A DNA stretch of 20,000 nt from an uncultured virus (IMG/VR IMGVR_UViG_3300026198_000079) (IMGVR_UViG_3300026198_000079), one strand, 5' to 3'; numbered from the stretch's first letter, positions 3,034-20,000 are shown. Notes: generated by a model not told the origin, from the sequence alone. A program made the numbers and translations.

Positions 3034-3061
3034 AATCTTGGTAAAGGAGTGTCAGGCCAAC

Positions 3062-4403: not shown

Positions 4404-4497
4404 AAATGACCTCACCTGCGTTTAAGGAAAAAGGAAAAGAACGGCCTCCAATCCGTTTCAAAGACGGATTGAACGTCGTTCTTGGAAAAGAGGATGG
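4394..4497 (+). pseudogene. 5' fragment of the SMC-like ABC ATPase (LmuB-like), interrupted by IS21
   Basis: RBS GGAGGTG, ATG 4394, MLIEMTSPAFKEKGKERPPIRFKDGLNVVLGKEDG; joins in frame to 7017 once the IS and one TSD copy are removed. Confidence 0.9.
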
Positions 4498-4602
4498 TGT
4501 TAATGATAATCTAAAACTACCCCATATTAATAATTGAAAAGTACCCCAGGATAAAATAGACTTTCCTATGTGTCTAAAAGATATATAGGGGGTTCTGGGG
4601 AG

Positions 4603-6186: not shown

Positions 6187-6950
6187 CCACAAAGAAGGAA
6201 ATGTCCAGGTTGATAATAGAGTATTGTAAAGCCCTTAGATTGCCTTCTATTAGGCGCTTGTTTGAAGCAGAAATTGCCGAAGCTAGACTGCGTGATATTT
6301 CTTATGAAGAGTTCTTATTTAATCTTCTTCAAAAAGAGAATGATCTAAGATATGAAAATGGCAGAAAGAACCGGATTAGAATAGCCAACTTCCCTTGTAA
6401 AAAATATCTGGAAGACCTGGTTGTGGAATATTTGCCCGAAGATGCCCGCAAAAAATTGAAAACCTTAAGCTCATTAGAATTTATTAAGACTGGTCAAAAC
6501 GTGATACTGGCAGGTAACCCAGGTACGGGAAAGTCCCATATTGCCATAGGCTTAGGCATTAAAGCCTGCATGGAAGGTTACAAAGTTCTTTTTACAACCG
6601 TTCCTCTACTGATAAATCAGTTAAAAGAGAGCCGTTCGGCCAAGACTTTGAGGGCTTATGAAAACAAGTTCGAGAAATATGATCTGGTTATCGCGGATGA
6701 ATTAGGATACATATCTTTTGACAAGGAGGGATCGGAACTTTTATTTACCAATCTATCATTACGAGCTGGCAGAAAATCAACCATAATCACTACCAACCTT
6801 TCTTTTGAAAGATGGGAAGAAATATTTATGGATCCGGTCATGACCGCTGCTATGATTGACCGGCTTACACATAAGTCCTATATGATTAATATGAATGGTA
6901 ATTCCTATAGATTGAAGGAGACTCAAGATTGGCTCAAAAATCAAAAGTAA
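6183..6950 (+). CDS. istB: IS21 helper ATPase IstB
   Basis: Walker A GNPGTGKS, Walker B LVIADELG, AMIDRLTH and GNSYRL motifs; 4-nt overlap with istA. Confidence 0.95.
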   Translation: MTTKKEMSRLIIEYCKALRLPSIRRLFEAEIAEARLRDISYEEFLFNLLQKENDLRYENGRKNRIRIANFPCKKYLEDLVVEYLPEDARKKLKTLSSLEFIKTGQNVILAGNPGTGKSHIAIGLGIKACMEGYKVLFTTVPLLINQLKESRSAKTLRAYENKFEKYDLVIADELGYISFDKEGSELLFTNLSLRAGRKSTIITTNLSFERWEEIFMDPVMTAAMIDRLTHKSYMINMNGNSYRLKETQDWLKNQK

Positions 6951-7016
6951 TTTTTTTAGCTTAATGTGGGATACTTTTCGTTTATTATCTGGGGGATTTT
7001 TCGGTTGACAAAAACA

Positions 7017-8576
7017 GATGGCGAGAACTCCATCGGCAAGTCCTCCGCCATGCTTGCTATTGATTTTGTATTCGGCGGCAACACCTATCTTGCCAGCGAT
7101 GGTGTAAAGCATATCGGCGACCATACGATTTTCTTCACCTTTGCTTTTGACGGAAAGCCGTACTACTTTGCCCGCAACACTGCGTCCCCTGATGACATCC
7201 ATGTGTGTTCCGAGGGATACCAGCTGACCGGGGATGTCTGGACAAAGCAGGAATTTGCCAACTGGCTCAAAGAAAAATATCATATCGACTTCTCCGGGCT
7301 TTCGTTCCGTGAGACCATGAGCAGTTTCTTCCGCATCTACGGCAAAGAAAATACGGACGAGCGCCGTCCGCTCAAAGGGCTCCCCGGCGAGAGCATGCAG
7401 AAGTCCATCGACATACTTGTGAAGCTGTTTGACCGCTACAAGGACGTGGAGGTATTTAACGGCCGCCTTGAGGAACAGAAGAAAAAACTGGCGGCATACC
7501 GCGAGGCTCGGAAATACCGCTTTGTTCCCGACTTGGTTGGCGGCAAGACGCAGTACGACGAAAATGTTGCGCAGATTCGCAGCCTGCAGGTAGAACTCGA
7601 CAATCTGACCGCAGAGCAGGTGGAAGATCAAAAAGGTATAGATATAGAAAAAAGCCGCATCAAGTCTCAGCTGCAGGCAAGCAAACTGCGCCTTGAGACT
7701 GAAATGCAGTCCAAGCAGCGCAGGCTGAACCTGCTGAACATGAGCCTTGAATACGGCTTATACCCAACGGAAGCGGATCTGTCCGCCTTACAGGAGTTTT
7801 TCCCGGAGGTGAACATCCGCAAACTATATGAAGTTGAAAAGTATCACCAGAAACTGGCGGCTATCCTTGACGAGCAGTTTTCTGCCGAACGTCAGTCTGT
7901 TGAGGGAGAAATCGCCGATCTGCAGGAACAGATAAAGGCATTGCAGACGCAAATCAGCGAACTCGGTTTTGTCGGAAACCTCTCCAAGGAGTTTCTGGAC
8001 AAGCACTCCGAGATCAAAGGTCGCATCGACGCATTGAAAGCACAGAATGAGGCTTACCTTACGTTGACCGACCTGCAGGATGCCCGCAAGAAGGCAGATG
8101 AAATGCTGAAACGCGCTATCGAGGATATCCTTGCGGACATTGAGCGTTCCATCAACGACAAGATGAAGGAATTCAACGACTCCCTCTTCACGGAGTCGCG
8201 CAAAGCTCCTCATCTGCACTTTAACGAATACAACAGCTACAGATTTGAAACGCCGGACGATACGGGAACAGGATCCAATTACAAGGGTATGGTGGTTTAC
8301 GACCTCGCCGTTCTGTATCTTACGGCACTCCCGGCTATCGCGCACGACTCCCTTATTCTGAAGAATATCGGTGACGGAGCGGTTGACGGCATTATGAAAA
8401 TATACGCGCAGAGCAGAAAGCAGGTGTTTATAGCGTTCGATAAGCAGGCGGCTTATATGCCGGATACTCAGAAAATATTAGCTGACAACACCGTATTGAA
8501 ACTGTCTGATGGTAACTGTGAACTTTATGGTGAGTCATGGAATAAAGAGGTATCTCAAAATGAAGATGAGTTATAA
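7017..8576 (+). pseudogene. 3' part of the DUF2326-type SMC-like ABC ATPase (LmuB-like); 552 aa when reconstituted
   Basis: Walker A GENSIGKSS at the junction, long coiled-coil region, signature DTGTGSNYK, Walker B AIAHDS, QVFIAFDK. Confidence 0.88.
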
Positions 8577-8769
8577 GAAACTGTGGAAGCTACTGATTGA
8601 CAAAGATATGAAGAAGACGGATTTGCGAAAAGCGGCGGGCATCAGTTCATCTTCTCTTGCGAAACTCGGCAAGGATGAGAATGTCACTACGGATGTACTG
8701 CTTCGCATCTGCAAAGCACTCGACTGTGAGCTTGATGACATCGTGGAGATTGAACGAACAGAGGAATAG
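8560..8769 (+). CDS. XRE/Cro-C1 family HTH transcriptional regulator (69 aa)
   Basis: MKMSYKKLWKLLIDKDMKKTDLRKAAGISSSSLAKLGKDENVTTDVLLRICKALDC; RBS GAGGT; overlaps the ATPase stop. Confidence 0.88.
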   Translation: MKMSYKKLWKLLIDKDMKKTDLRKAAGISSSSLAKLGKDENVTTDVLLRICKALDCELDDIVEIERTEE

Positions 8770-8905
8770 GCGGAGAGACCGATTATATTCTGACCATACT
8801 GCTTTGGTGTTCAGTGGATATCTGTCGCAGTCGAGGTTGAGGATAAAGAATAATATTATCGAATAATAACCGCTAACGACCATTCATTAAGATGAAGGGA
8901 TGAAC

Positions 8906-9252
8906 TGAACGACCCTCGCCTAAAGGCGAGGGGTTCACTTAAGCGACTGAAAGTCGCCCACCAGCTAAAGCAGGTATATAGTGGTTACTCTTCATCAATC
9001 GTGAAATTATCTACAGGGTGTTCTTCATTGTGATGTTTTATATAATGCTTTATTGTTTCTTCATCGACCGCACCAACTGTTGCGCAAAAATATCCTCGTG
9101 CCCACATATGCTGTCCCCAGTAGCGTTTTTTCAATTCCGGGAACTCGCTTTGTAAATCGTGTGATGTTTTCCCTTTTAGCTTCTGCATTATATAGCTTGG
9201 TGATAGATTGGGCGGACATGATAGTATCAAGTGTATATGATCTTTTCCTATG
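8906..9252 (-). mobile_element. Truncated IS200/IS605-family element (right end plus 3' half of tnpA)
   Basis: Subterminal hairpins CCCTCGCC-TAAA-GGCGAGGG (8913-8932) and GCGACT-GAA-AGTCGC (8943-8957) downstream of tnpA. Confidence 0.8.
8985..9252 (-). pseudogene. tnpA: IS200-type HUH (Y1) transposase TnpA, 5'-truncated
   Basis: IGKDHIHLILSCPP (HUH), KLKGKTS, YWGQHMWARGYFCATVG and IKHYI (catalytic Tyr). Resemblance to TnpA ends upstream of IGKD. Confidence 0.85.
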
Positions 9253-9646: not shown

Positions 9647-11032
9647 ATGGCAGAAGATAAGAAACAGTCGCCCGTCCCGGAGGCGCATACCACGCCCGAG
9701 GCCCCGGCTCCTAAAACGCCGGGCGGCCCCGCCGTGGAGGAACAGGCCACGATCCCCGGCATGGAGAGCGGCCCCGCTCCCTCTGGTAAGGTGATCGACC
9801 TGTCCGATGTGCGGGCCGCTGGTGCGGACAAGGCCAAGGCCGCCGAGCCTGATAAAGTGGAGCCGCCCGCCTCGAAAGCAGACAAACAGCCCGACAAGCC
9901 CGCGCCCGCCGCTGATGCCAGGGCTGGTAAGGAAATGCCCAAACAGGCCCGCCCGCCTAAAGCGGATAAAGCCCCGTCAGCCGATAAGGGGGCCAAGAAA
10001 GCGGAGCAGGCTGACAAGCCCCGCCGTGGCCGTCCTCCCAAGGATCAGGCTACCCCGGAGAAAAAGGGTAAGGCGGCCCCGGCCAAGGCTCCCGCAGAAG
10101 CGGCAAAAGCCGATCCCCCGGCCCCGGAGGTTCCTCCCGCTCCCCGCGACGCTACCCGCGCCGTCAAGGAGGAAATCGTATATATTAACCTTTCCGAGCT
10201 GCATCCGTTCAAGGAACATCCCTTTGGTGTCCGGGACGATGCGGAAATGCAGGGCCTTGTGGAGTCCGTCCGTTCTGGCGGTGTGCACCAGCCTGCGCTG
10301 GTGCGTCCTCTCGAAGATGGCGGCTATGAGATTATTGCGGGCCACCGCCGCCAGCGGGCCAGCGAATTGGCCGGATTTATGAATATGCCCTGTATCGTCC
10401 GCAACATGACGGACGATGAAGCCATCCTCGCTATGACGGATGACAACCTCCGCCACCGCGAAACGATTTTGCCCAGCGAAAAGGCCCTTGCCCTGAAAAA
10501 GCAGTATGAGGCGATCAAGCATCAGGGATCGCGTGGGGATGATGCGGCGGCGGGTAAGCTCTCGCTGGAAAGCGTGGGCCAGCGCAACGGCATGAGCGTG
10601 AAAACCGTTCAGCGGTATATTTGGCTCAATGACCTTGTTCCCGAGTTGAAGCAGACCATGGATGCGGGAAAGCTGTCCTTTACCCCCGCCGTGGAAATCT
10701 CCCGCATCCGTCCCACCCACCAGAAGTATATCGCCGTTTCCATTGAGGGCCAGCAGTCCTCGCCCTCCAAGGGACAGGCAAACAGGCTCCGGGAGCTGGA
10801 TAAGGACAACAAGCTGACCCCGGATGTCATTGATGGCATTTTGAGTGAAGAAAAGAAAAAGGAGGATCGTGACGTGATTATTACCGGCTCTGAATTGGAA
10901 AAGTTCTTCGGCAAGGAGGCCACGCCCCGCCAGATGAAGGATCAGATCATGACCCTGCTGGCCGACTGGAAAGAGAAGCAGCCGCCCGAGCTTGCCAAGC
11001 CCGACAAGAAAAAAACGGATAAGGAGAAGTAA
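9647..11032 (+). CDS. parB: ParB/RepB/Spo0J family protein with a long Pro/Ala/Lys-rich N-terminal extension
   Basis: RBS AGGAGGT; LHPFKEHPF, GVHQPALVRP, YEIIAGHRRQRA (arginine patch), DDNLRHRE, HTH MSVKTVQRYI. Confidence 0.9.
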   Translation: MAEDKKQSPVPEAHTTPEAPAPKTPGGPAVEEQATIPGMESGPAPSGKVIDLSDVRAAGADKAKAAEPDKVEPPASKADKQPDKPAPAADARAGKEMPKQARPPKADKAPSADKGAKKAEQADKPRRGRPPKDQATPEKKGKAAPAKAPAEAAKADPPAPEVPPAPRDATRAVKEEIVYINLSELHPFKEHPFGVRDDAEMQGLVESVRSGGVHQPALVRPLEDGGYEIIAGHRRQRASELAGFMNMPCIVRNMTDDEAILAMTDDNLRHRETILPSEKALALKKQYEAIKHQGSRGDDAAAGKLSLESVGQRNGMSVKTVQRYIWLNDLVPELKQTMDAGKLSFTPAVEISRIRPTHQKYIAVSIEGQQSSPSKGQANRLRELDKDNKLTPDVIDGILSEEKKKEDRDVIITGSELEKFFGKEATPRQMKDQIMTLLADWKEKQPPELAKPDKKKTDKEK

Positions 11033-11035
11033 GCA

Positions 11036-11058
11036 CCTCTGGCCATCGTGACCAGAGG
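11036..11058 (-). repeat. Palindrome copy 1 (inverted relative to the others); also forms a terminator after parB
   Basis: CCTCTGGCCATCGTGACCAGAGG followed by TTTTTT. Confidence 0.85.
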
Positions 11059-11077
11059 TTTTTTCGTCCCCCAAAAC

Positions 11078-11184
11078 GGGGTGCCCCATGAAGTCGCAGA
11101 CTTCATGGGGAGAGGAGGCGCAACGGAGCGTGTGGATTTTGGGCGCTTGCGCCCAAAGGAACAAAGCGAAGTTTGTACCGACGA
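11078..11184 (+). repeat. Structured ~107-nt repeat, copy 1
   Basis: CCCCATGAAGTC-GCA-GACTTCATGGGG hairpin, then GAGGAG, inner hairpin TTTGGGCGC-TT-GCGCCCAAA, and terminal CGACGA. Confidence 0.85.
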
Positions 11185-11185
11185 A

Positions 11186-11344
11186 GGCTCCTGTGGTATA
11201 TATCCCCCGTCGCCGCCCATCACCGGGCGCAGCCGGGAGCTGGCCGTCAAGGGGGCGTAGCCCCGCCAAGGGCGGCTTGCCCTTTACGGTCTGCCCCGGC
11301 TGTGCCATATTCAGCGGCGCGGCGGGGGTATATCCTCCAGAGCC
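11186..11344 (+). promoter_or_regulatory. Long imperfect hairpin containing -35/-10 boxes (Frpo/ssi-like single-strand promoter candidate)
   Basis: GGCTC/GAGCC, CCCCCG/CGGGGG, GCAGCCGGG/CCCGGCTGT, CCGTCAAGGG/CCCTTTACGG. TTTACG (11283) - 17 bp - CATATT (11306). Confidence 0.5.
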
Positions 11345-11430
11345 GCCCCCTTTTCCAAGACTGGAAAAGGGCGGGGGAAAAAGGTTGAACCGTCCCCTGT
11401 AAAACTAACTTTGAAATGGAGGTATTCCTT

Positions 11431-11772
11431 ATGAAAAGGCCCCTTGCCTATATCACCGCCGCATGGTGCGGCGATCCCCATGAAATGACCGAACAGGCGG
11501 CCAAGTATTGCCGAGCCGTCTATGACGCGGGCTTTTCCCCGATTTGCCCCACGCTCTATCTGCCCCTGTTCCTCAACGATGCGGTTCCCGAGGAACACAA
11601 AAGCGGCATCGATATGGGCCGCAATCTGCTCCGCCGTTCTCATGTGCTGGTGGTGTGCGGTCATACCGTCACCGAGTCCATGAAGAATGACATTGCCGTG
11701 GCCCAGCGGCTGGGTATCACTTCGACCACGCTGGAGGGCATCCTGACCGTCAAGCGTCAGGGCCACCGCTGA
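11431..11772 (+). CDS. DUF4406-like protein (nucleoside 2-deoxyribosyltransferase-like fold)
   Basis: RBS GGAGGT; MKRPLAYITAAW, YCRAVYDAGFSPICP, LLRRSHVLVVCG, ESMKNDIAVA. Confidence 0.65.
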   Translation: MKRPLAYITAAWCGDPHEMTEQAAKYCRAVYDAGFSPICPTLYLPLFLNDAVPEEHKSGIDMGRNLLRRSHVLVVCGHTVTESMKNDIAVAQRLGITSTTLEGILTVKRQGHR

Positions 11773-12488
11773 TGTCAGCCCTGATTGAAGCCTATGTTAC
11801 CAACCTCGGGAAATACGCCGAGTATGGCGTGGAGGCTGGAGAAACCCTAAAGTTTCCCGCCACCACCGAGGAGGTACAGGCACTTTTGAAGCGGATCGGC
11901 GTGGATGGTGTGCGGTATGAAGAAATCTTCATTACCGCGTTTGACGGCGATGTGCTGGGCATCTGCGACTGTTTGGGTGAGTACGAAAGCATTGACGAAC
12001 TGAACTATTTGGCCCATCTGCTCTCCGAGTTGGACACCTCTGAGCTTGAAAAGTTCGAGGCCGTCATTGACAGCGGCGAGTACACAGGGAGCGTCAAAGA
12101 CTTAATCAACCTGACGCAAAATCTGGATTGCTTTGAGTTTTACCCCGATATTGACGATGACGAGGCGCTGGGGCGAATGTACGTCCAGGACTTCGGCTCC
12201 ATTCAGATCCCAGAGCATCTCATTGACTATATCGACTATGAGGCATACGGGCGGGATATGCGGATCAACGAGGACGGCCACTACGCCCCCGGCGGCTATG
12301 TGTTCAATAACAACAGCAGTTTTATTGAGCACTACTCCGGCAGGGATGACATTCCTCCGGAGCACCGCATTTTCGCCTATCCCAAACTGAATATCCGGGA
12401 GCAAATGGCAGCCTATCAGGAAATCATTGACCGCTCCGCGCTGAACGAGGACAAGCAGCGGCTCCCCATCAGCCGAGAGGACAGATAG
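11772..12488 (+). CDS. ardA: Antirestriction protein ArdA (DNA mimic)
   Basis: Highly acidic; AYVTNLGKY, GEYESIDELN, IPEHLIDYIDYEAYGRD. Confidence 0.9.
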   Translation: MSALIEAYVTNLGKYAEYGVEAGETLKFPATTEEVQALLKRIGVDGVRYEEIFITAFDGDVLGICDCLGEYESIDELNYLAHLLSELDTSELEKFEAVIDSGEYTGSVKDLINLTQNLDCFEFYPDIDDDEALGRMYVQDFGSIQIPEHLIDYIDYEAYGRDMRINEDGHYAPGGYVFNNNSSFIEHYSGRDDIPPEHRIFAYPKLNIREQMAAYQEIIDRSALNEDKQRLPISREDR

Positions 12489-12493
12489 CGCCG

Positions 12494-12516
12494 CCTCTGG
12501 TCACGGTGGCCAGAGG
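12494..12516 (+). repeat. Palindrome copy 2
   Basis: CCTCTGGTCACGGTGGCCAGAGG just after the ardA stop; stem extended by GCCG/CGGC. Confidence 0.9.
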
Positions 12517-12524
12517 CGGCAAAT

Positions 12525-12631
12525 GGGGTTCCCCGCAAAGTCGCAGATTTTGTGGGGAGAGGAGCCACAACGTAGTGTGCGGATTTTGGCCGCCTGCGGC
12601 CAAAGGAGCAAAGCGCAGTTTGTGGCGACGA
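12525..12631 (+). repeat. Structured ~107-nt repeat, copy 2
   Basis: CCCCGCAAAGTC-GCA-GATTTTGTGGGG, GAGGAG, TTTGGCCGC-CT-GCGGCCAAA, CGACGA; abuts the pcfB RBS. Confidence 0.85.
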
Positions 12632-12646
12632 GAGGAGGTGGTTTAG

Positions 12647-13120
12647 ATCGTAGGTGACGAAGTTTCCCGTCAGACCATTGCCGTCAGCGTTCAGGCATCC
12701 AAGCTGACGGCCCGGAGCCTTGCCTATGCGCTGGCCGCCGTGGGCCGCCAGATTGCCAAGGAGCACCGCAAGGCCCAAGCTCCCCACGGCAAGCAGAGCG
12801 TAAAAAAGCTCATGGGCCACGGCGGGTCCACAAGCAGTATCGAACTGTCCGGGGCTACCCGGCACTTTGACCGGGTGGCCCGGAAGTGGGGGGTTGACTA
12901 TGCCTTTCGCCGGGTGGACAAGGGCAAATATCTGTTACTGTTCAAGGCAAATCAGGCCGACGCCATCACGGGCTGTTTTGCTGAGTATTCCCGCAAGGAA
13001 CTGAACCGGGCCAAGTCCTGGCGCACCCCGATCCGTGAACAACTCAACCGGGCCGAGGAACAGGCGCGGAAACAGCCCCAGCGGGAGCTGGAAAAGGAGG
13101 CGGTGCATGGGGACAGATAA
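12647..13120 (+). CDS. PcfB-family (DUF3801) protein, probable ATC start
   Basis: RBS AGGAGGTG at 12633-12640. Frame reads IVGDEVSRQTIAVSVQASKLTARSL...HGKQSVKKL...FDRVARKWGVDYA...YLLLFKANQADAIT. Confidence 0.8.
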   Translation: MVGDEVSRQTIAVSVQASKLTARSLAYALAAVGRQIAKEHRKAQAPHGKQSVKKLMGHGGSTSSIELSGATRHFDRVARKWGVDYAFRRVDKGKYLLLFKANQADAITGCFAEYSRKELNRAKSWRTPIREQLNRAEEQARKQPQRELEKEAVHGDR

Positions 13121-14945
13121 GCTCCGCAAATATGTACTTCCCAATATCCCGTATCTGTTCATCGGCTGGGCCTACCTGAAAGTGGGGACGGCCTACCGTC
13201 TGGCCGCTGGTGCGGGCTTCGGCCAAAAACTGTTGGGGATCATGCAGACCATCGGCGTGGCCTTTGCGGATTTTGCACCGGGCCTGAACCCGGCAGACTG
13301 GCTGGTGGGTATCGTGGGGGCCGTGGGCTTTCGGCTCCTGATCTACTGCAAGGCGAAAAAGGCCAAGAAGTTCCGCCACGATGCGGAGTACGGCACAGCC
13401 CGCTGGGGGACGGAAAAGGACATCAAGCCCTTTATTGATCCCAAGTTTGAAAATAATATCATTCTGACCGCCACGGAGCGGCTGACTATGAACACTCGCC
13501 CGGCCAACCCCGCAAACGCCCGAAATCTGAACACCTGCATTATCGGGTCGAGCGGATCTGGAAAAACCCGCTTCTGGCTTACTCCCCAGCTACTGTCCGC
13601 TCATTCCTCCTACGTCTGCGTAGATCCCAAGGGCGGCGTCCTCTCCCAAGTGGGCTATTTCCTGCAAAAGAAGCGGGGGTACAAAATCAAGGTGTTCAAC
13701 AGCATCGACTTTTCCAAGTCCATGCACTATAACCCGCTGGCGTACATCAAAAACGAGGCCGACATTTTGAAGTTCGTGGACACCCTGATCGCCAACACCA
13801 AGGGCGAGGGCAAGGAGGGTGATCCATTTTGGACGAAAGCAGAAACGCTTTTATACTGCGCTCTCATTGCCTACATCATTTTTGAAGGCCCCGCCGAGGA
13901 TCGGAATATGAACACGCTGGTTGATATGATCTCCGGGATGGATGTCAAAGAGGACGATGAAAACTACAAAAACGCCGTGGACTATATGTTCGATGGTCTT
14001 GCCAAGCGCAAGCCGGATTGTTTCGCCGTCAAGCAGTACCGCAAGTACAAATTAAGCAGCGGCAAAACGGCCAAGTCGATCCTGATAAGCTGCGGCGCAC
14101 GTCTGGCCCCCTTTGACATCCCCCAGCTCCGGGAGATTATGAGCTATGACGAGCTGGAGCTTGACCGCATGGGCGATAAACGGACGGCAACCTTTTTCGT
14201 GATCTCCGACACCACGCAGACCTATAACTTCATCGTTGCGCTGGCCTTTTCGCAGATGTTCAATCTTCTTTGTGAACGTGCCGACAACGTACACGGCGGG
14301 CGTTTGCCCCATCATGTGCGGGTGCTTTGGGATGAGGCCGCCAATACGGGACAAGTCCCACAACTGGAGAAGTTAGTAGCCGTCATCCGCTCACGCGAGA
14401 TCAGTCTGGCGCTTCTGTATCAGGCGCAGTCCCAATGCAAGGCCATTTACAAGGACAATGCCGAAACGATCTTCGGCAATATGGACACCATGATTTTCCT
14501 TGGTGGCCGGGAAAGTACCACCATCAAGGAGATTTCCGAAAACTGGCTGGGCAAGGCCACGATCTCCATGCAGACCGAGGGCCGCTCCCGAGGGCAGTCG
14601 GAAAGTTTCAGCCAGAACACCCAGCGGCTGGGCCGGGAGCTGATGACCCCCAGCGAATTGGCTACCATGCCCGGAGATCGGTGCATTTTACAGCTTCGGG
14701 GCCTGCCGCCGTTCTACTCCAAGAAATACGATTTGAAACAGCACCCCAACTACAAGTACACCGCCGAGGCTGACAAGCGCAACGCCTTTGACCTGCAAAG
14801 TCTTGTCACCCGGCGCATGGACAAGCTCAACCCCAATGAGCAATACACCGTTTACGAGGTGGCCGTACCAGACGAGGCGCACATGGAAGAGGACGAGGAC
14901 ATCCTCAACTATGACGACCTCGACGACCCGGACACCTTTGTATAA
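13107..14945 (+). CDS. virD4: VirD4/TraG-like type IV coupling protein
   Basis: RBS AAGGAGG; N-terminal TM segments, YGTARWG, Walker A GSSGSGKT, DPKG, WDEAAN, IRSREIS, GRELMTPSEL. Confidence 0.93.
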   Translation: MGTDKLRKYVLPNIPYLFIGWAYLKVGTAYRLAAGAGFGQKLLGIMQTIGVAFADFAPGLNPADWLVGIVGAVGFRLLIYCKAKKAKKFRHDAEYGTARWGTEKDIKPFIDPKFENNIILTATERLTMNTRPANPANARNLNTCIIGSSGSGKTRFWLTPQLLSAHSSYVCVDPKGGVLSQVGYFLQKKRGYKIKVFNSIDFSKSMHYNPLAYIKNEADILKFVDTLIANTKGEGKEGDPFWTKAETLLYCALIAYIIFEGPAEDRNMNTLVDMISGMDVKEDDENYKNAVDYMFDGLAKRKPDCFAVKQYRKYKLSSGKTAKSILISCGARLAPFDIPQLREIMSYDELELDRMGDKRTATFFVISDTTQTYNFIVALAFSQMFNLLCERADNVHGGRLPHHVRVLWDEAANTGQVPQLEKLVAVIRSREISLALLYQAQSQCKAIYKDNAETIFGNMDTMIFLGGRESTTIKEISENWLGKATISMQTEGRSRGQSESFSQNTQRLGRELMTPSELATMPGDRCILQLRGLPPFYSKKYDLKQHPNYKYTAEADKRNAFDLQSLVTRRMDKLNPNEQYTVYEVAVPDEAHMEEDEDILNYDDLDDPDTFV

Positions 14946-14968
14946 CCTCTGGTCATGGTGGCCAGAGG
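14946..14968 (+). repeat. Palindrome copy 3
   Basis: CCTCTGGTCATGGTGGCCAGAGG directly after the virD4 stop. Confidence 0.9.
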
Positions 14969-15001
14969 ATGACGCGCCGCCCTTATGGGCGGCTATTATT
15001 A

Positions 15002-15106
15002 TGGGTTCCCGCAAAATCAAAGATTTTGTGGGAAGAGGAGCCGCAACGGAATGAGTGATTTTTCGCGCTTGCGCGGAAATGAACGATATGAAGTTTGCGG
15101 CGACGA
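15002..15106 (+). repeat. Structured ~105-nt repeat, copy 3
   Basis: TTCCCGCAAAATC-AAA-GATTTTGTGGGAA, GAGGAG, TTTTCGCGC-TT-GCGCGGAAA, CGACGA. Confidence 0.8.
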
Positions 15107-15141
15107 GGCCGGGGTATGGCCCCGGAGAAATGGAGGCATAT

Positions 15142-15354
15142 ATGGCTTTTTTCACTTCCGCTGTTACTACCTTGCAGACCCTCGTTGTGGCTCTGGGCGC
15201 TGGCCTTGCTGTGTGGGGCGTAGTCAATCTGCTGGAGGGCTACGGCTCCGATAACGCAGCGGCCAAGAGCCAGGGCATCAAGCAGCTCATGGCGGGTGGC
15301 GGCATCATCGTGCTGGGTACTACCCTGATCCCCCTGCTGTCTACCCTGTTTTAA
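15142..15354 (+). CDS. Maff2-family small membrane protein (VirB2/pilin-like position)
   Basis: MAFFTSAVTTLQTLVVALGAGLAVWGVVNLLEGYGSDN..KSQGIKQLMAGGG; RBS GGAGG. Confidence 0.88.
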   Translation: MAFFTSAVTTLQTLVVALGAGLAVWGVVNLLEGYGSDNAAAKSQGIKQLMAGGGIIVLGTTLIPLLSTLF

Positions 15355-15366
15355 GGGCAGCGGCCT

Positions 15367-16233
15367 ATGGGTATTCTCACCGAATGGATCACGGAATGGC
15401 TCAAAGAGCTGTTGATCTCGGGGATCATGGACAACCTCGAGGGGCTGTTTGACACGGTGAATACCCGGGTCGGGGAAATATCCGTACAGGTGGGAACGAC
15501 CCCGGCGGCATGGAACGCCGGGGTTTTCTCCCTGATACGGCAGCTTTCCGAAACGGTCATTTTGCCGATTGCCGGACTGATCCTAACCTTTGTCGCAACC
15601 TATGAGCTGATCCAGATGATCCTGGAAAAGAACAATATGCACGAGTTCGACGTGGCGAATATCTACAAGTGGGTATTCAAAACGACTTGTGCCATCCTCA
15701 TTCTCTCCAACACCTTTAATATTGTCATGGCGGTTTTTGACGTTTCCCAAAGCGTGATCGCAAGCTCGGCGGGAATTATCGGCGGCAGTACCGATGTCAC
15801 CCCGGATATGCTGGACACGCTGGAGGCCAGTCTGGAGGCGATGGAACTTGGCCCTCTGCTGGGGCTGTTCCTGCAATCCTTTGTCATTAAGCTGACCATG
15901 TTTGCCCTGAATATATTTATTTTCGTGATCGTGTATGGCCGTATGGTGGAGATCTATCTGCTGACCAGTCTGGCCCCGATCCCCGTGGCCACCCTCACCA
16001 ACCGGGAGGCCGGACAGATGGGCCAGAATTATCTCCGCTCCCTGTTTGCCGTGGGCTTTCAAGGTATGCTGATCCTTGTATGCGTGGCCATCTATGCGGT
16101 GCTCGTTCAGGGCATTGCCACAGGCGGTGATCCTATCGGGGCCATTTGGGGCTGTATCGGCTATACCGTCCTGCTGTGCTTTATCCTGATGAAAACCGGA
16201 ACAATCGCAAAAAGCGTATTCAACGCCCATTGA
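15367..16233 (+). CDS. VirB6/TrbL-like conjugal transfer membrane protein
   Basis: Multiple TM segments; YGRMVEIYLLTSLAPIP, NYLRSLFAVGFQG. Confidence 0.85.
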   Translation: MGILTEWITEWLKELLISGIMDNLEGLFDTVNTRVGEISVQVGTTPAAWNAGVFSLIRQLSETVILPIAGLILTFVATYELIQMILEKNNMHEFDVANIYKWVFKTTCAILILSNTFNIVMAVFDVSQSVIASSAGIIGGSTDVTPDMLDTLEASLEAMELGPLLGLFLQSFVIKLTMFALNIFIFVIVYGRMVEIYLLTSLAPIPVATLTNREAGQMGQNYLRSLFAVGFQGMLILVCVAIYAVLVQGIATGGDPIGAIWGCIGYTVLLCFILMKTGTIAKSVFNAH

Positions 16234-16250
16234 GAAAGGACAGGTGATCC

Positions 16251-17036
16251 ATGCAAGACAACTTCACTTCTGGTCACGGTGGCCAGAACATTACCCCGGA
16301 GGGCCTGTACCTGATGGATGGGATCGAGGGACTGCGCTCCTTGCCCCGTCATTCTGTGGATATGCTTTTGACCGATCCGCCCTACGGCACGACCCGGAAT
16401 TATTGGGATGTTCCCTTGCCCCTGCCGGAGCTGTGGGAGGCGGTGCGCTGGGCGGTGAAGCCCGAGGGCGCGGTGCTTCTGTTTGCCCAATGTCCCTATG
16501 ACAAGGTGCTGGGCGCGTCCAACCTCCCCATGCTCCGCTATGAGTGGGTGTGGTACAAGAGCCGATGCACCGGGTTTCTCAACGCCCGCCGCGCTCCGCT
16601 GAAAAAGACGGAGAACATTCTGGTGTTCTATCAGAAGTCCCCGGCTTACTACCCACAATTTGAGCAGGGAGAGCCGTACAAGAAAATCCACCCCCGCAGC
16701 GGTCACAGTCCCAATTATGGAGCCTTTGAACGTATCAGCGGCGAGTCGGACGGGCGGCGGTTCCCCGGCAATGTGCTGGCGTTCCCCACGGTGGCGAATA
16801 CCGTTCATCCCACGCAGAAGCCCGTGGAGCTGTGCGAATATCTCATTAAAACCTACACCCGCGAGGGACAGGTGGTAGCGGATATTTGTGCCGGGAGCGG
16901 CACAACGGCCATCGCCGCTCTGAACACGGGCCGTCGCTTTATCGGTTTTGAGAACGCCCCGGCCTTTTACGGCCCGGCGGCTGAACGTATCCAGCGGGCG
17001 CGGGAGGCCGTTGCCCGCGGCGAGAAAGGAGTGTAA
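16251..17036 (+). CDS. Orphan N6A/N4C DNA methyltransferase (beta class)
   Basis: TDPPYG precedes HPTQKP and DICAGSGTT; no restriction nuclease adjacent. Confidence 0.9.
   Translation: MQDNFTSGHGGQNITPEGLYLMDGIEGLRSLPRHSVDMLLTDPPYGTTRNYWDVPLPLPELWEAVRWAVKPEGAVLLFAQCPYDKVLGASNLPMLRYEWVWYKSRCTGFLNARRAPLKKTENILVFYQKSPAYYPQFEQGEPYKKIHPRSGHSPNYGAFERISGESDGRRFPGNVLAFPTVANTVHPTQKPVELCEYLIKTYTREGQVVADICAGSGTTAIAALNTGRRFIGFENAPAFYGPAAERIQRAREAVARGEKGV
16268..16288 (+). repeat. Palindrome copy 4 (within the first codons of the MTase)
   Basis: TTCTGGTCACGGTGGCCAGAA. Confidence 0.9.
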
Positions 17037-17038
17037 TC

Positions 17039-17626
17039 ATCGGAAGATATTCTATCATCTACGCCGATCCCCCTTGGCGGTATTCCCAAAAGGGCTTGCA
17101 GGGGGCGGCGGAGCACCATTACCCCACAATGGGGATTGACGATCTGTGCGCGTTACCCGTGGCCGAGCTTGCGGCCCCGGACAGCGCACTCTTTTTATGG
17201 GCTACGTTCCCCCAGCTCCCGGAGGCCCTGCGGCTGATCCGCGAGTGGGGCTTCACCTACAAGAGCGTCGCTTTCGTCTGGCTGAAGAAAAACCGCAAAG
17301 CGGATAGCTGGTTTTACGGGCTGGGCTTTTGGACGAGGGGCAATGCCGAGGTCTGCCTGCTGGCAACCAAGGGCCACCCCAAACGTCAGGCGGCAAACGT
17401 CCACCAGTTCATTATTTCCCCCATCGAGGCCCACAGCAAAAAGCCCGACGAAGCCCGCGACAAGATCGTGGCCCTCATGGGTGATCTGCCCCGTGTGGAG
17501 CTGTTCGCAAGGCAGACCCCGCCCGGATGGGACGTATGGGGCAACGAGGTGGAGTCCACGGTTCCCGGCTTCTGGTCACGGTGGCCAGAGGATGGCGGAA
17601 AGGAGGACGAGTCATGCCGTATGTGA
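17039..17626 (+). CDS. MT-A70 family adenine methyltransferase, probable ATC start
   Basis: Frame reads IGRYSIIYADPPWRY...HYPTM...LFLWATFP...WTRGNAEVCLL...HSKKP...VELFAR. The DPPW motif lies upstream of the first canonical start (17096). RBS AAAGGAG. Confidence 0.88.
   Translation: MGRYSIIYADPPWRYSQKGLQGAAEHHYPTMGIDDLCALPVAELAAPDSALFLWATFPQLPEALRLIREWGFTYKSVAFVWLKKNRKADSWFYGLGFWTRGNAEVCLLATKGHPKRQAANVHQFIISPIEAHSKKPDEARDKIVALMGDLPRVELFARQTPPGWDVWGNEVESTVPGFWSRWPEDGGKEDESCRM
17569..17591 (+). repeat. Palindrome copy 5 (within the last codons of MT-A70)
   Basis: CTTCTGGTCACGGTGGCCAGAGG. Confidence 0.9.
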
Positions 17627-17994
17627 ACGTCCCTAACGATCTGTCCAAGATCAAGACGAAAATCGCCTTTAACCTCACCAAGCGCCAGTTGATCTGTTTC
17701 GGCGGCGCGGCGGTGGTGGGCATCCCTGTGTATCTGCTGACCCGCAGCACACTTGGAAATACCGGGTCGATGTTCCTGATGATCGCGCTCATGCTCCCGG
17801 CCTTTTTCATGGCGATGTATGAGCGGGACGGCCTGCCTTTTGAAAAGGTGGTGCGGAACATCCTCCGGGCCAAGTTCACCCGCCCCGGCGTGAGGCCCTA
17901 TCAGACGCAGAACATTTACGCCCCATTTGCGGGAAAGGAGGATGCTTTTGACCAGAAGCCCCAAGAAAAGAAAAAGCCTGATTCGGGCCGGTAA
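17614..17994 (+). CDS. prgI: PrgI-family (VirB3-like) protein
   Basis: RBS AAGGAGG; MPYVNVPNDLSKIKTKIAFNLTKRQLICF, two TM segments, YERDGLPFEK, RPYQTQN. Confidence 0.88.
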   Translation: MPYVNVPNDLSKIKTKIAFNLTKRQLICFGGAAVVGIPVYLLTRSTLGNTGSMFLMIALMLPAFFMAMYERDGLPFEKVVRNILRAKFTRPGVRPYQTQNIYAPFAGKEDAFDQKPQEKKKPDSGR

Positions 17995-20000
17995 TCGCCC
18001 GGCCACCATATCAGCCCAGCAGACCGTCCCCTATGTGCGGATGCTCCCGGACGGCATTTGTCAGCTCCCCAACGGTCTGTTCACAAAAACCGTGGAATAC
18101 GAGGACATCAATTACTCCGTGGCTTCGGCGGAGGATCAGACGGCCATCTTCGGGGGCTGGAGTTCGTTCCTCAACTACTTTGACAGCTCCTTGCCGTTCC
18201 AGCTCTCCTTTATCAATCGCCGCTCCCGCTCCGGGGGCCGCTATAAGGTGAATATCCAGCCCGCCGAGGACGAGTACAACAGCGTCCGGGCCGAGTTCAC
18301 CGGGATGCTGAAAAACCAGATTGCCAAAAGCAACAACGGTATTGAGCGATCCAAGTACATCACTTTCGGTATCCCCGCTGAGAACGTGGCCGCCGCCCGC
18401 CCCCGGCTGGAGCGTGTGGAGGCCGATGTTATGGGCAACTTTAAGCGGCTGGGGGTGCAGTCCCAGCCCCTCGACGGACGGGAGCGTCTGGCCCTGCTCC
18501 ACGGTCAGCTCCACCCCAGCAGCCGGGAGCCGTTCCGCTTCAAGTGGGCCGACATCGCCCATACCGGGCTGGGGACGAAAGATTTTATCGTCCCGGACAG
18601 CTTCGACTTCCGACAGTCCCGGCTGTTCCGCGTGGGCCAGACGTGGGGCGCGGCGTCCTACTTGCAGATCATGGCGTCGGAAATGTCGGACAAGCTCCTG
18701 TTAGAGATTTTGGAATTGGACGCAGAGCTGACCGTCACCATGCACATTCAGACGGTGGATCAGGTCAAGGCCATTAAGACGGTCAAGGGCAAAATCTCCG
18801 ACATCGACAAAATGAAGGTGGAGGAACAGCGCAAGGCCACCCGCGCTGGGTACGATCCCGATATTCTCCCGCCAGACCTCGTTACCTTTTCCAAGGACGC
18901 GGCAGACCTGCTGGCCGAGCTCCAGTCCCGAAATGAGCGAATGTTCCTCCTGACGTTCCTGATCGTCAACACCGCCCCCACGCGGGAGCGGTTGGAAAAC
19001 GATATTTTCACGGTGGGCGGCATCGCGCAGAAGTATAACTGTGCTTTGAAGCGGCTGGACTGGCAGCAGGAGCAGGGCTATATGTCCTCGCTGGCGCTGG
19101 GCTATAACGGCGTTGAAATCCAGCGGGGCATGACCACCAGCTCCACGGCCATCTTTATTCCCTTTATGACGCGGGAGCTTCGCATGGATGGGCCATCCCT
19201 CTATTACGGCATGAACGCCCTTTCCCATAACGTCATCATGGCTGACCGCAAAAAACTGAAATCCGCCAACGGAATGTACCTCGGCTCGACGGGTAGTGGT
19301 AAGAGCTTCGCCGCCAAGCGGGAGCTGCTCAATGTGTTTCTGACAATTCCGCAGGATCGGATTCTGGTGGTAGATCCGATGGGAGAATATGCCCCGCTGG
19401 TGCGGCGGCTGGGCGGTCAGGTGATCGAGATTGCCCCGGACAGCCCGAACCACATTTCCCCGATGGATCTGCAAATGAGCGTCAACGACGAGGACAGCCC
19501 CCTTTCCATGAAAGCGGACTTCCTGCTGTCCCTGTGCGAGCTGATCGTGGGCGGCAAGGAGGGCTTGCAGCCCATTGAGAAAACCGTGATTGACCGCTGT
19601 GTGCGTCAGGTGTACCGGGAGATCGCGCTGGGGCTGGAAACGGCCAAGCCGCCCCTGCTCCAAGATTTGTACGAGGAGCTGCTGAAACAGCCCGAACCCG
19701 AGGCCAAGCGGATCGCCACGGCATTGGAGCTTTACTGCACAGGCTCCCTCAACCTGTTCAATCACCCCACCAACGTCAACCTCAATTCCCGCGTGGTGTG
19801 CTTCGTGCTGAAAGGCATGGGTGAAAACCTCCGCAAGATCGCCATGCACATCACCAACGATTTTGTCACTTCGGCGGTCAATGCCAACTACAAAAACGGC
19901 GTTTCGACGTGGTGCTACTTCGACGAGTTCCATATTCTTCTGCGCGATCCGCTGACCGCCAGCTACTTCGTGGCCGTCTGGAAGATGCTTCGCAAAAAGG
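17948..20000 (+). CDS. virB4: VirB4-like conjugal transfer ATPase (partial, runs off the window)
   Basis: TTG start after AAGGAGG. SAQQTVPY..PDGIC, Walker A GSTGSGKS at 19283 and YFDEFH at 19916 are all in the same frame. Confidence 0.9.
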   Translation, partial: MTRSPKKRKSLIRAGNRPATISAQQTVPYVRMLPDGICQLPNGLFTKTVEYEDINYSVASAEDQTAIFGGWSSFLNYFDSSLPFQLSFINRRSRSGGRYKVNIQPAEDEYNSVRAEFTGMLKNQIAKSNNGIERSKYITFGIPAENVAAARPRLERVEADVMGNFKRLGVQSQPLDGRERLALLHGQLHPSSREPFRFKWADIAHTGLGTKDFIVPDSFDFRQSRLFRVGQTWGAASYLQIMASEMSDKLLLEILELDAELTVTMHIQTVDQVKAIKTVKGKISDIDKMKVEEQRKATRAGYDPDILPPDLVTFSKDAADLLAELQSRNERMFLLTFLIVNTAPTRERLENDIFTVGGIAQKYNCALKRLDWQQEQGYMSSLALGYNGVEIQRGMTTSSTAIFIPFMTRELRMDGPSLYYGMNALSHNVIMADRKKLKSANGMYLGSTGSGKSFAAKRELLNVFLTIPQDRILVVDPMGEYAPLVRRLGGQVIEIAPDSPNHISPMDLQMSVNDEDSPLSMKADFLLSLCELIVGGKEGLQPIEKTVIDRCVRQVYREIALGLETAKPPLLQDLYEELLKQPEPEAKRIATALELYCTGSLNLFNHPTNVNLNSRVVCFVLKGMGENLRKIAMHITNDFVTSAVNANYKNGVSTWCYFDEFHILLRDPLTASYFVAVWKMLRKK

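What the first reader, a model, noticed from the sequence alone, without database searches (positions are those of the whole stretch)
11078..15106. Three dispersed ~107-nt repeats with compensatory base changes: conserved ssDNA/RNA structure
Seen: copies at 11078-11184, 12525-12631 and 15002-15106 diverge in sequence but keep every stem. Stem 1: CCCCATGAAGTC/GACTTCATGGGG vs CCCCGCAAAGTC/GATTTTGTGGGG vs TTCCCGCAAAATC/GATTTTGTGGGAA. Inner stem: TTTGGGCGC/GCGCCCAAA vs TTTGGCCGC/GCGGCCAAA vs TTTTCGCGC/GCGCGGAAA. Outer stem: GCCACAA/TTGTGGC vs GCCGCAA/TTGCGGC. GAGGAG and CGACGA are invariant, and G-T wobbles favour the + strand. Each copy follows a palindrome copy and precedes a new gene block. Inference: a selected single-stranded structure, such as a priming site (sso/ssi) on transferred DNA, an antitermination/processing RNA for the long tra transcript, or a non-autonomous HUH-mobilised element.
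Basis: partly seen in the sequence, partly recalled or inferred. Interest (0 to 1): 0.72.

Follow-up and report, generated by a model that had tools for sequence, protein, structure and literature searches.

The report
Widespread two-hairpin interspersed repeat family
The three look-alike stretches are copies of a small self-folding DNA repeat that is scattered by the dozen through chromosomes, phages and conjugative elements of gut Clostridia, so here they are passengers in the transfer operon rather than part of its machinery.

Summary
Three ~110-nt copies (11076-11186, 12523-12633, 15002-15108 region) share a 13-bp hairpin, a GAGAGGAG linker and a long irregular hairpin ending in GACGA, and the stems are kept by compensatory changes. 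No Rfam 15 family matches.

The element is not specific to this transfer operon. A covariance model found:
- 68 copies in 62 viral contigs, lying between many different phage late genes;
- 89 copies in 80 bacterial loci;
- 7 to 48 or more copies per genome in ten genomes;
- a match in 77 of 121 genomes of one family (Oscillospiraceae by record title) and in 38 of 151 Clostridia.

Covariation is strong (about 90% of cells paired against 37-50% when partners are slid; 0 of 500 shuffles reach it). The gene-sense strand folds better in 130 of 130 copies.

Two syntenic conjugative elements lack the copies: one has all three sites empty, the other has two empty. Homology resumes exactly after GACGA.

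Copies tend to sit directly behind stop codons in the gene's direction (34 sense against 2 antisense). Ten or more are flanked by 31-90-nt duplications of the gene end.

No link to Y1 (HUH) transposases was found, and only a weak one to reverse transcriptases.

Verdict: an undescribed REP/MITE-like structured repeat. Its way of moving is unresolved.

The parts
11076..11186 (+). It lies between the ParB_N gene (9647-11032) plus its palindrome and the 149-nt hairpin ahead of the DUF7768-ArdA block.
   Evidence: R1 gives 112.3 bits; repeat families D1, D2 and D4. The site is empty in G001 (L227) and in the S. variabile record (L068), and homology resumes at 11185/11186.
12523..12633 (+). It lies between ArdA (11772-12488) plus its palindrome and the Shine-Dalgarno-like GAGGAGG ahead of the DUF3801 gene.
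   Evidence: R1 gives 114.3 bits. The RNA fold is -52.2 kcal/mol with z = -3.29, against -36.7 for the complement. The site is empty in G001 and S. variabile, and homology resumes at 12633.
14999..15108 (+).
   Evidence: R1 gives 126.7 bits. The site is filled in G001 (L001/L003, 124 bits) and empty in S. variabile L072: 122 nt of the window stand against 15 nt there.
11036..11058 (.). Palindrome copy 1 of 5 (others at 12494-12516, 14944-14966, 16265-16287, 17569-17591). These are terminator-like hairpins behind gene blocks. They neighbour the repeat but are not part of it. This first copy is inverted relative to the others and is followed by a T-run.
   Evidence: Family D3 and inverted pairs I1, I2, I5 and I6. 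The hairpins are kept by compensatory changes in the two sister elements that lack the repeat. This copy is listed as terminator-like on the minus strand.

Best explanation
The three stretches belong to a large family of small (about 105-125 nt) structured interspersed repeats. The family is not in Rfam 15, and my literature searches turned up no description of it. It populates chromosomes, prophages and phages, conjugative elements and mobilisable elements of Oscillospiraceae and other Clostridia.

Shown:
- The unit is discrete: 5' GGGG-NN, a 13-bp hairpin P1, a GAGAGGAG linker, a roughly 22-bp irregular hairpin P2 whose base holds tandem G.A pairs that some copies replace with Watson-Crick pairs, and a GACGA end.
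- Its fold is kept by covariation on one strand only.
- It is gained or lost as a block at orthologous sites.
- It amplifies within genomes and within single phages or conjugative elements.
- When it abuts a gene end it does so just behind the stop codon and in the gene's direction.
- Its 3' end always abuts GG in the flank.
- In 10 or more cases it sits between two copies (31-90 nt) of the 3' end of the gene in front.

Inferred:
- It is a non-autonomous mobile or recombining element that moves through a single-stranded copy of the sense strand with a fixed 3' end. That end joins to target DNA at GG microhomology, while the 5' side is resolved less precisely, sometimes by homology with the gene end it carries along.
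- No dedicated enzyme has been identified.
- In this conjugative element the copies are passengers that landed between a gene-end hairpin and the next ribosome-binding site.
- They are most likely transcribed within the operon, where the sense RNA forms a very stable two-hairpin block that could protect the upstream cistron's 3' end. They carry no T-run, so they are not intrinsic terminators.
For: Family size and spread:
- 68 R1 matches in 62 viral loci.
- 27, 23, 36, 15 and 44 matches in five genomes, and 18, 7, 30, 48 and 20 in five more. These are floors, since only 150 candidates were scored per genome.
- A match in 77 of 121 genomes of one family, 38 of 151 of its class, and 1 of 61 relatives of G001.

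Structure. Strand asymmetry: 130 of 130 copies.

Presence or absence as a block: 0 matches in 6 related conjugative-element loci with filters off. Homology breaks exactly at the repeat edges at all three sites in S. variabile and at two sites in G001. At the murF site, 12 of 12 relatives' loci examined have a single gene end and no repeat. At the alaS site there are filled, empty and independently filled alleles.

Varied contexts: 28 of 32 flanking ORFs on the repeat's strand match PHROGs for different late genes. Housekeeping neighbours in both orientations appear.

Stop-codon anchoring: of 148 distinct copies, 34 have a coding-like ORF ending within -20 to +10 nt of the 5' edge in sense, against 2 antisense at the 3' edge.

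Long flanking duplications: of 133 flank pairs, 20 score above the 95th percentile of mismatched pairs and 10 above their maximum. The downstream copy starts 0 to -5 nt from the repeat's end (sequences).

Within-genome variants and mosaic clusters with GTAG-type hairpins.

Transcription: contigs from RNA libraries of three studies run through the copies into both flanking genes.
Against: - No mobilising enzyme was found. Y1_Tnp shows no association (19 of 77 against 9 of 44, p = 0.66). Most of these genomes are draft assemblies.
- No terminal inverted repeats and no short fixed target duplication are visible, so classical transposition is not shown.
- About 45 positions are nearly invariant across genera, and unpaired loops are conserved. 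That is more than hairpin-only parasites usually keep and could mean a function of its own, such as protein binding or catalysis.
- In phages, copies sit at orthologous junctions in diverged relatives. That fits vertical retention of something useful.
- The long duplications could arise from recombination between alleles rather than from insertion. Upstream copies often carry a foreign-looking tail.
- The RNA evidence is contigs only. Strand, transcript ends and DNA carry-over cannot be judged.
Confidence: 0.65

Rival explanations
1. A functional intercistronic RNA module. Transcribed in sense, the two-hairpin block would act in the mRNA as a 3'-end protector or processing site that sets the relative stability of operon segments, or as a device that re-tethers ribosomes through its GAGAGGAG tract for re-initiation at the next gene. 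On this view phages and conjugative elements keep it because it is useful, and the chromosomal copies are spill-over.
For: - In phage contigs the upstream stop lies -5 to +4 nt from the 5' edge and the next start 0-15 nt after the 3' edge at many different late-gene junctions.
- Sense bias is 34 to 2 at gene ends.
- The sense RNA is on average 12.6 kcal/mol more stable than the antisense.
- Unpaired loops and a Shine-Dalgarno-like tract are conserved.
- Up to three copies lie at successive junctions of one phage (L006).
- RNA-library contigs span the copies.
Against: - Sister conjugative elements with the same genes do without it.
- Antisense and within-ORF copies exist: L095 between purH and purD, L103, L042, L015.
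- Dozens of chromosomal copies lie in mosaic repeat clusters.
- No RNA ends could be seen, because only contigs were available.
Confidence: 0.2
2. A REPIN/PATE-type element mobilised in trans by an HUH Y1 transposase (RAYT or IS200/IS605 TnpA), which would recognise the folded sense-strand DNA.
For: - The strand-specific fold is also seen with DNA parameters (129 of 130 copies).
- There are no terminal inverted repeats and no short target duplication.
- Copies lie among GTAG-headed REP-like hairpins in G067.
- One copy lies about 320 nt from a Y1_Tnp gene (G098 contig 25).
Against: - Y1_Tnp is found in 19 of 77 genomes with the repeat and 9 of 44 without (p = 0.66).
- The top-copy genomes G067, G072, G117 and G180 show no Y1_Tnp.
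- The two hairpins of the unit are unlike each other, and no conserved target tetranucleotide precedes the 5' end.
- Long flanking duplications are not expected from peel-and-paste transposition.
Confidence: 0.12
3. An RNA-mediated (SINE-like) element. A stable RNA ending at ...GACGA(GG) would be reverse-transcribed after priming on a nick at GG. The cDNA would switch to, or already include, the 3' end of the mRNA in front and be fixed by homology. This would give sense orientation, stop-codon anchoring and long duplications.
For: - The architecture matches target-primed insertion: a precise 3' end with 2-5-nt GG microhomology at the start of the downstream duplicate, an imprecise 5' junction with 0-48 extra nt, and duplications of variable length from 31 to 90 or more nt.
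- Sense bias is 34 to 2.
- RVT_1 is weakly enriched in genomes with the repeat (26 of 77 against 7 of 44, p = 0.036).
Against: - 51 of 77 genomes with the repeat, including the top-copy ones, show no RVT_1.
- Most copies have no duplication (113 of 133 are at or below the null 95th percentile).
- Upstream tails that differ from the native tail (L112, L232) need an extra transfer between lineages.
- No RNA ends were observed.
Confidence: 0.1
4. A device of the conjugative element itself: a single-strand origin or priming site on transferred DNA, or a processive antitermination RNA for the tra operon. These are the first reader's first two options.
For: Three co-oriented copies lie in the leading or transfer region, each after a hairpin and before a gene block. 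The structure is strand-specific.
Against: - The same element occurs in tailed-phage late operons and in chromosomes.
- It reaches 7 to 48 or more copies per genome.
- It is absent from the same sites of syntenic elements and from five other related conjugative regions.
Confidence: 0.03

Closest known systems
bcr1 repeat of the Bacillus cereus group (about 155 bp, 'Group A' bcr repeats)
   Same: Both are small non-coding interspersed repeats in a Gram-positive lineage. Both are unevenly distributed between relatives, are transcribed, and fold into two independent stem-loops kept by compensatory changes (passages of the review PMC3184786).
   Different: bcr1 is flanked by 5-bp direct repeats and is confined to one species group. 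Here there is no short duplication. Some copies have 31-90-nt duplications. The spread covers a whole class plus phages and conjugative elements, and there is no sequence likeness.
REP/BIME elements and REPINs with their RAYT (HUH Y1) transposases
   Same: Both are high-copy extragenic structured repeats behind genes, clustered in mosaics. In G067 this repeat lies among GTAG-headed hairpins of REP type.
   Different: A REP is a single hairpin of about 20-35 nt with a GTAG or GTGG head (recalled). This unit is about 110 nt with two unlike hairpins and about 45 conserved positions. No association with Y1_Tnp was found.
SPRITE, BOX and RUP repeats of Streptococcus pneumoniae
   Same: Both are small interspersed repeats that fold tightly. 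SPRITE is enriched close to the 3' ends of genes, and no mobilising enzyme or target duplication could be established for it (passages of PMC3049150).
   Different: SPRITE is AT-rich and looks like a long Rho-independent terminator with a T tract. BOX and RUP have terminal inverted repeats and target duplications. This repeat is GC-rich, has no T-run and no inverted termini.
Target-primed (LINE/SINE-type) insertions, and homology-facilitated illegitimate recombination
   Same: The architecture of the duplicated cases matches: a fixed 3' end joined at microhomology, a variable 5' junction, and long duplications of variable length. This is a resemblance in how it works, not membership. Both comparators are recalled from general knowledge.
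   Different: There is no poly-A or simple 3' tail, no reverse transcriptase was tied to it, and most copies have no duplication.
Integron attC sites
   Same: Both are strand-specifically folded elements lying directly behind the stop codon of each gene or block, in one orientation, with structure conserved.
   Different: No R''/L''-L'/R' organisation and no GTTRRRY core can be read in the copies. Sequence is strongly conserved. Neighbouring genes are fixed structural genes, not shuffled cassettes. Integron integrase genes were not sought in the genomes that hold the repeat, and none turned up among the flanking ORFs scanned.

Membership tests
Any Rfam 15 family | A match to a curated covariance model at its gathering score | tested here: not met
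   There were 0 matches at gathering thresholds over the whole window. With E up to 10 over 10900-18000, only two chance-level hits appeared and neither overlaps a copy.
Classical MITE | Terminal inverted repeats matching an IS | tested here: not met
   The ends read GGGG-NN-CCCC... and ...GACGA. The only shared letters (CCGCAA/TTGCGG in copies 2 and 3) vary independently across copies.
Classical MITE | A short target-site duplication of fixed length | tested here: not met
   None is seen at the three filled or empty sites of the conjugative elements, nor in the flanks of 132 distinct copies. Ten or more copies have long variable duplications instead.
Classical MITE | Small, non-coding, multi-copy, with presence/absence differences between relatives | tested here: met
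REP/REPIN-RAYT | A short GTAG/GTGG-headed palindrome, often as inverted pairs | tested here: not met
   The unit is about 110 nt with two unlike hairpins. GTAG-headed hairpins occur beside it in G067 but are separate units.
REP/REPIN-RAYT or IS200/IS605 PATE | Co-occurrence with a Y1 HUH transposase | tested here: inconclusive
   Y1_Tnp is present in 19 of 77 genomes with the repeat and 9 of 44 without, p = 0.66. Draft genomes may miss genes.
Single-strand origin (sso) or ssi of rolling-circle plasmids and ICEs | Tied to replicons that pass through a single-stranded stage, with one or a few per replicon | tested here: not met
   Copies lie in tailed-phage late operons and at 7 to 48 or more per chromosome.
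Processive antitermination RNAs (put, EAR, conAn type; names recalled) | Sits in the leader of the operon it serves and is conserved with that operon | tested here: not met
   It is absent from syntenic operons of two sister elements and from five other related regions. It is present at unrelated loci.
Intrinsic terminator / SPRITE-like | A GC-rich hairpin followed by a T-run | tested here: not met
   No terminator-like site falls inside a copy, and the 3' end reads GACGA-GG.
Self-cleaving ribozyme or riboswitch class | Catalysis or ligand binding | not testable with these tools
   Only the lack of a match to known classes in Rfam can be stated. Conserved loops leave this open.

The most novel reading that the evidence does not exclude
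The repeat would be a bacterial counterpart of a SINE, seeking transcript ends and needing no transposase. A nuclease-resistant single-stranded copy of the sense strand (RNA or DNA) with a fixed 3' end would prime on GG in target DNA. On its 5' side it would join to, or carry along, the 3' end of the message in front. This would explain three things at once: anchoring on stop codons, the 34-to-2 sense bias, and the 31-90-nt duplications of gene ends. It would also explain how one element colonises chromosomes, phage late operons and conjugative operons alike. Earlier notes of this scan describe similar stop-codon-anchored hairpin repeats in unrelated phyla, so this could be a general and undescribed mode of spread.
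Probability: 0.15. Interest if true: 0.85.

Novelty: new variant of a known kind. Interest (0 to 1): 0.6.

Why it matters
The family is one of the commonest structured non-coding elements in a dominant group of gut bacteria. It is present in 77 of 121 sampled genomes of one family and often exceeds 30 copies per genome. No Rfam 15 family matches it, and my searches found no paper that describes it.

It matters for four reasons:
- It marks points where phages, conjugative elements and chromosomes exchange DNA.
- Its strict placement behind stop codons, its one-strand fold and its duplications of gene ends point to a way of moving or recombining that the known MITE and REP models do not cover.
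- If the sense RNA also protects or punctuates operon messages, it would be a portable expression module shared by phages and conjugative elements.

Tried and rejected
- Rfam at gathering and at permissive thresholds gave nothing.
- The window's own assembly is not held. Relatives of the nearest genome gave 1 of 61 positives, which first made the element look rare. Sampling around a high-copy genome corrected this.
- Two naive ORF-based context scripts were too noisy in GC-rich DNA. I replaced them with a codon-usage score trained on 22 genes that have family hits. That score is still crude: 112 of 148 copies had no confident gene end at either edge.
- The idea that copies land behind terminator hairpins failed. 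Folds of -15 kcal/mol or lower occur in 26 of 126 upstream windows, 22 of 126 downstream and 43 of 252 controls.
- Y1_Tnp and RVT_1 association tests gave none and weak, respectively.
- The repeat finder on a G067 flank returned nothing, although hairpins can be read there by eye.
- RNA libraries were available only as contigs. They run through the copies but cannot show strand, ends or level, and DNA carry-over is possible. One loose end at 12516 in X15 may be a relative without copy 2; I did not follow it.
- Literature searches found no paper on this family: 'Maff2' with 'RNA motif' gave 0 papers, and the Oscillospiraceae/Flavonifractor/Oscillibacter search with repeat terms listed 20 of 2,126 papers, none relevant by title or abstract.
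- Look-ups of earlier scan notes by sequence and by place gave nothing.
- An attC-like reading and a DGR (VR/TR) reading of the duplications were considered and dropped on reading the sequences. There are no attC core sites, and the differences between duplicates are not confined to adenines.
- Protein structure, complex, atlas and homology tools were not used, because the element is non-coding.

Full report
1. What is in the window

Pfam scans show a Clostridia-type conjugative element on the + strand:
- a ParB_N protein (9647-11032)
- DUF7768 (11416-11772)
- ArdA (11772-12488)
- DUF3801 (12740-13120)
- a VirD4-like coupling protein (to 14945)
- Maff2 (to 15354)
- TrbL_2 (15367-16233)
- two DNA methylases
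- a VirB4-like ATPase

The three repeats lie at 11076-11186, 12523-12633 and 14999-15108. Each sits 17-33 nt after a copy of a 23-nt palindrome and before the next gene block.

2. The structure is real and belongs to one strand

Each copy folds into three parts: a 13-14-bp hairpin (P1), a GAGAGGAG linker, and a long irregular hairpin (P2).
- RNA folds of the + strand give -44 to -54 kcal/mol with z = -3.3 to -3.5. The complement gives -32 to -48.
- A covariance model (R1) built from the three copies and two from the nearest held genome scores them at 112-127 bits. The best other hit in the window is 17 bits.
- On 47 distinct phage-contig copies, 89.4% of cells pair against 38-50% when partners are slid. 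23 of 35 pairs change on both sides, and no shuffle of 500 reaches the covariation score.
- On 87 distinct bacterial copies the figures are 90.7%, 30 of 35 pairs and 0 of 500. These alignments were fitted to the model, which favours the structure. The slid controls and the 5-sequence MAFFT/RNAalifold result (16 of 35 pairs compensated) do not depend on that.
- Three positions are mostly G-U (for example 43 of 47 and 57 of 87 at one P1 pair).
- The sense strand folds better than its complement in 130 of 130 copies with RNA parameters (mean -49.0 against -36.4) and in 129 of 130 with DNA parameters (-24.0 against -19.6).
- The base of P2 holds two tandem G.A/A.G blocks in most copies. Window copies 2 and 3 replace one block with C-G pairs, so the helix is continuous.
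- About 45 positions, several of them unpaired, are nearly invariant.

3. It is not in Rfam

There are no matches at gathering thresholds and none of substance at E up to 10.

4. It is not a device of this operon

An IUPAC pattern from the invariant columns found 62 stretches in viral contigs, and R1 confirmed 68 copies there. Of 32 flanking ORFs on the repeat's strand, 28 match PHROGs families. The junctions differ from contig to contig:
- tape measure | Dit
- major head | Ad1
- Ad1 | Hc1
- Hc1 | Neck1
- TerL | head-tail adaptor
- adaptor | portal
- baseplate wedge pairs
- minor tail | holin
- behind an HNH endonuclease gene
- behind a primase gene

One phage contig has three copies at successive junctions (L006).

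R1 confirmed 89 copies in the 80 loci fetched.

Whole-genome searches gave 27, 23, 36, 15 and 44 copies in five genomes, and 18, 7, 30, 48 and 20 in five more. These are floors, because only 150 candidates were scored per genome.

Across wider samples:
- 77 of 121 genomes have a match in the family around G067, which is Oscillospiraceae by its record title and the taxonomy look-up.
- 38 of 151 genomes of its class have a match.
- Only 1 of 61 relatives of the genome nearest to the window has a match.

Pfam on ambiguous flanks shows chromosomal neighbours and both orientations:
- antisense between purH and purD (L095)
- antisense between a kinase and a hydrolase (L103)
- behind a Mur ligase facing a carboxypeptidase gene (L096, L105)
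- inside an open C5-methylase reading frame (L015)
- next to an IS110 transposase (L079)

In G067 the copies lie in mosaics of GTAG-headed REP-like hairpins. They share a genome-specific P1 variant, which points to amplification within the genome.

5. It comes and goes as a block

R1 with filters off finds no copy in six related conjugative regions, among them an Enterococcus plasmid region and loci from Vescimonas, Monoglobus, Pusillibacter and Subdoligranulum.

A syntenic element in Subdoligranulum variabile (about 73% nucleotide identity) has all three sites empty. BLAST homology stops before and resumes exactly after each copy:
- window 11003-11184 against 69 nt
- window 12432-12632 against 86 nt
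- window 14998-15119 against 15 nt

The element in the nearest held genome (G001) is empty at sites 1 and 2 and filled at site 3.

The palindromes are present in all three elements and are kept by compensatory changes, so they are independent gene-end hairpins. The insertions lie between such a hairpin and the next Shine-Dalgarno sequence. No target duplication is visible at these sites.

6. Where it sits, and what flanks it

Reading the flanks of 132 distinct copies, the host stop codon often touches the 5' GGGG, and GACGA is followed by GG.

With a codon-usage score, 34 of 148 copies have a coding-like ORF ending within -20 to +10 nt of the 5' edge in sense. Only 2 have one abutting the 3' edge in antisense, and 112 have neither.

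In 20 of 133 flank pairs the upstream and downstream flanks share a direct repeat that scores above the 95th percentile of mismatched pairs. In 10 pairs the score exceeds the mismatched maximum. These repeats are 31 to 90 or more nt long and have four regular features:
- The downstream copy starts 0 to -5 nt from the repeat's 3' end, overlapping its GG.
- The upstream copy ends 0-48 nt before the 5' edge.
- The duplicated piece is the last 10-30 codons plus the stop of the gene in front (murF-like, murC-like, alaS, deoC-like, an SMC-like gene), or a tRNA end with its terminator.
- The downstream copy runs on into the native terminator or the next gene's ribosome-binding site.

One case (L147) is a plain tandem array of gene end plus repeat.

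Two loci were checked against relatives:
- At the murF end, 12 of 12 relatives' loci examined have a single gene end and no repeat. The arrangement in L127 (a 69-nt duplication) is therefore derived.
- At the alaS end, two related genomes share one filled arrangement. A third has a single gene end with the same tail and terminator as their downstream copy. A fourth has an independent filled arrangement whose downstream copy is all but identical to the native end of its relatives, while the upstream copy differs.

The downstream copy is thus the resident one. The repeat arrives together with a gene end that can look foreign: in L127 the two copies differ by 5 synonymous changes, 1 amino-acid change and the stop codon.

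7. How it most likely works

Shown: a discrete unit, a sense-strand fold, block gain and loss, amplification, stop-codon and sense bias, a fixed 3' end at GG, and long duplications in a minority of copies.

Inferred: movement or recombination through a single-stranded sense copy whose 3' end is fixed a few bases beyond P2 and joins at GG microhomology, with the 5' side resolved loosely or by homology.

Two known processes give this architecture: target-primed reverse transcription and homology-facilitated illegitimate recombination (both recalled). I could not tell them apart.

Enzyme tests were negative or weak:
- Y1_Tnp: 19 of 77 against 9 of 44, p = 0.66.
- RVT_1: 26 of 77 against 7 of 44, p = 0.036 uncorrected, with 51 of 77 carriers lacking it.

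Upstream hairpins are not a general target. The copies have no T-run and are not called as terminators.

Contigs from four metatranscriptome runs of three studies run through the copies into the flanking genes. That fits co-transcription but cannot prove it or show transcript ends.

8. Comparison with what is known

Passages of PMC3184786 and PMC3049150 were read.
- bcr1 of the Bacillus cereus group is the closest in kind: two stem-loops, transcribed, compensatory changes, mobile-like. It has 5-bp direct repeats and a narrow host range.
- SPRITE shares the 3'-of-gene habit and the unknown mobiliser, but it is an AT-rich terminator look-alike.
- REP/BIME shares the mosaic habit, but not the size, the head motif or, here, the enzyme link.

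Earlier notes of this scan describe stop-codon-anchored, sense-oriented hairpin repeats in CPR bacteria, Saccharibacteria (one said to duplicate tens of bases of its target), rumen Clostridia, an archaeon and Alphaproteobacteria. These are unchecked leads. I reached my reading before seeing them, and none shares sequence with this family.

9. Verdict

The reading as a selected single-stranded structure is right, but its function is not tied to conjugation. The copies belong to an abundant repeat family that no Rfam model or paper I found describes. It is of the REP/MITE kind but has unusual features: no inverted ends, no short duplication, stop-codon anchoring in sense, long duplications of gene ends, and residence in phage late operons and conjugative operons. 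The way it moves and any RNA role remain open.

Noticed in passing
window 11036-11058, 12494-12516, 14944-14966, 16265-16287, 17569-17591: A five-copy 23-nt palindrome family lies behind gene blocks. The first copy is inverted and followed by a T-run. In two sister conjugative elements the hairpins sit at the same places with compensatory changes, so they are conserved gene-end hairpins (terminators, stabilisers or a protein site), independent of the repeat.
   Followed up: partly
window 11192-11340: A 149-nt long imperfect hairpin lies just after copy 1 and upstream of the DUF7768-ArdA block. The DNA fold is -48.3 kcal/mol with z = -4.6. Its base (GGTATATATCCCCCGTCGCCGCC) is conserved in all three related elements. 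It is a candidate single-stranded promoter or origin-of-transfer-like site for early anti-restriction expression.
   Followed up: partly
window 3026-8576: An IS21-type pair (istA-like 4570-6186, IstB 6183-6950) sits between a gene with the ABC-3C CTD11 domain (3026-4195) and a DUF2326/AAA_15 gene (6966-8576). It looks like an insertion into an ABC-three-component defence-like locus.
   Followed up: no
window 8001-9062 vs L227 (reverse strand 50-1111): This 1,062-nt stretch is 100% identical to the element in the nearest held genome, while the neighbouring conjugation genes are only 69-74% identical. That suggests a recent exchange of this segment.
   Followed up: no
L015 1457-1567 (minus strand) within ORF 555-2792: A copy lies in antisense inside a 746-codon open frame whose N-terminal part is a C5 DNA methylase. 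The frame stays open through the 111-nt insert.
   Followed up: no
L147; G063 contig 22 at 31633, 31797, 31961; L076, L143, L062: Tandem arrays of the repeat occur with short spacers, with periods of about 117-207 nt. L147 repeats the unit 'gene end plus repeat'.
   Followed up: no
L195-L214 (genome G067): Intergenic regions are mosaics of several short GTAG-headed palindromes (REP-like) together with the 118-nt repeat. Similarity between loci extends over 350-690 nt.
   Followed up: partly
window 12516, run X15: One RNA-library contig follows the window up to the end of palindrome 2 and then continues with other sequence holding a ribosome-binding site and an ATG. It may come from a relative without copy 2.
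   Followed up: no
L028 and L084 (viral and bacterial loci): A copy lies 14 nt upstream of the start of a 328-aa ORF. Judged by eye from its N-terminal sequence, it resembles a Mob_Pre/MobV-type relaxase, whose origin of transfer is usually found there. Its only family scan, PHROGs, gave one weak hit to a family of unknown function. A link to relaxases was not tested.
   Followed up: no
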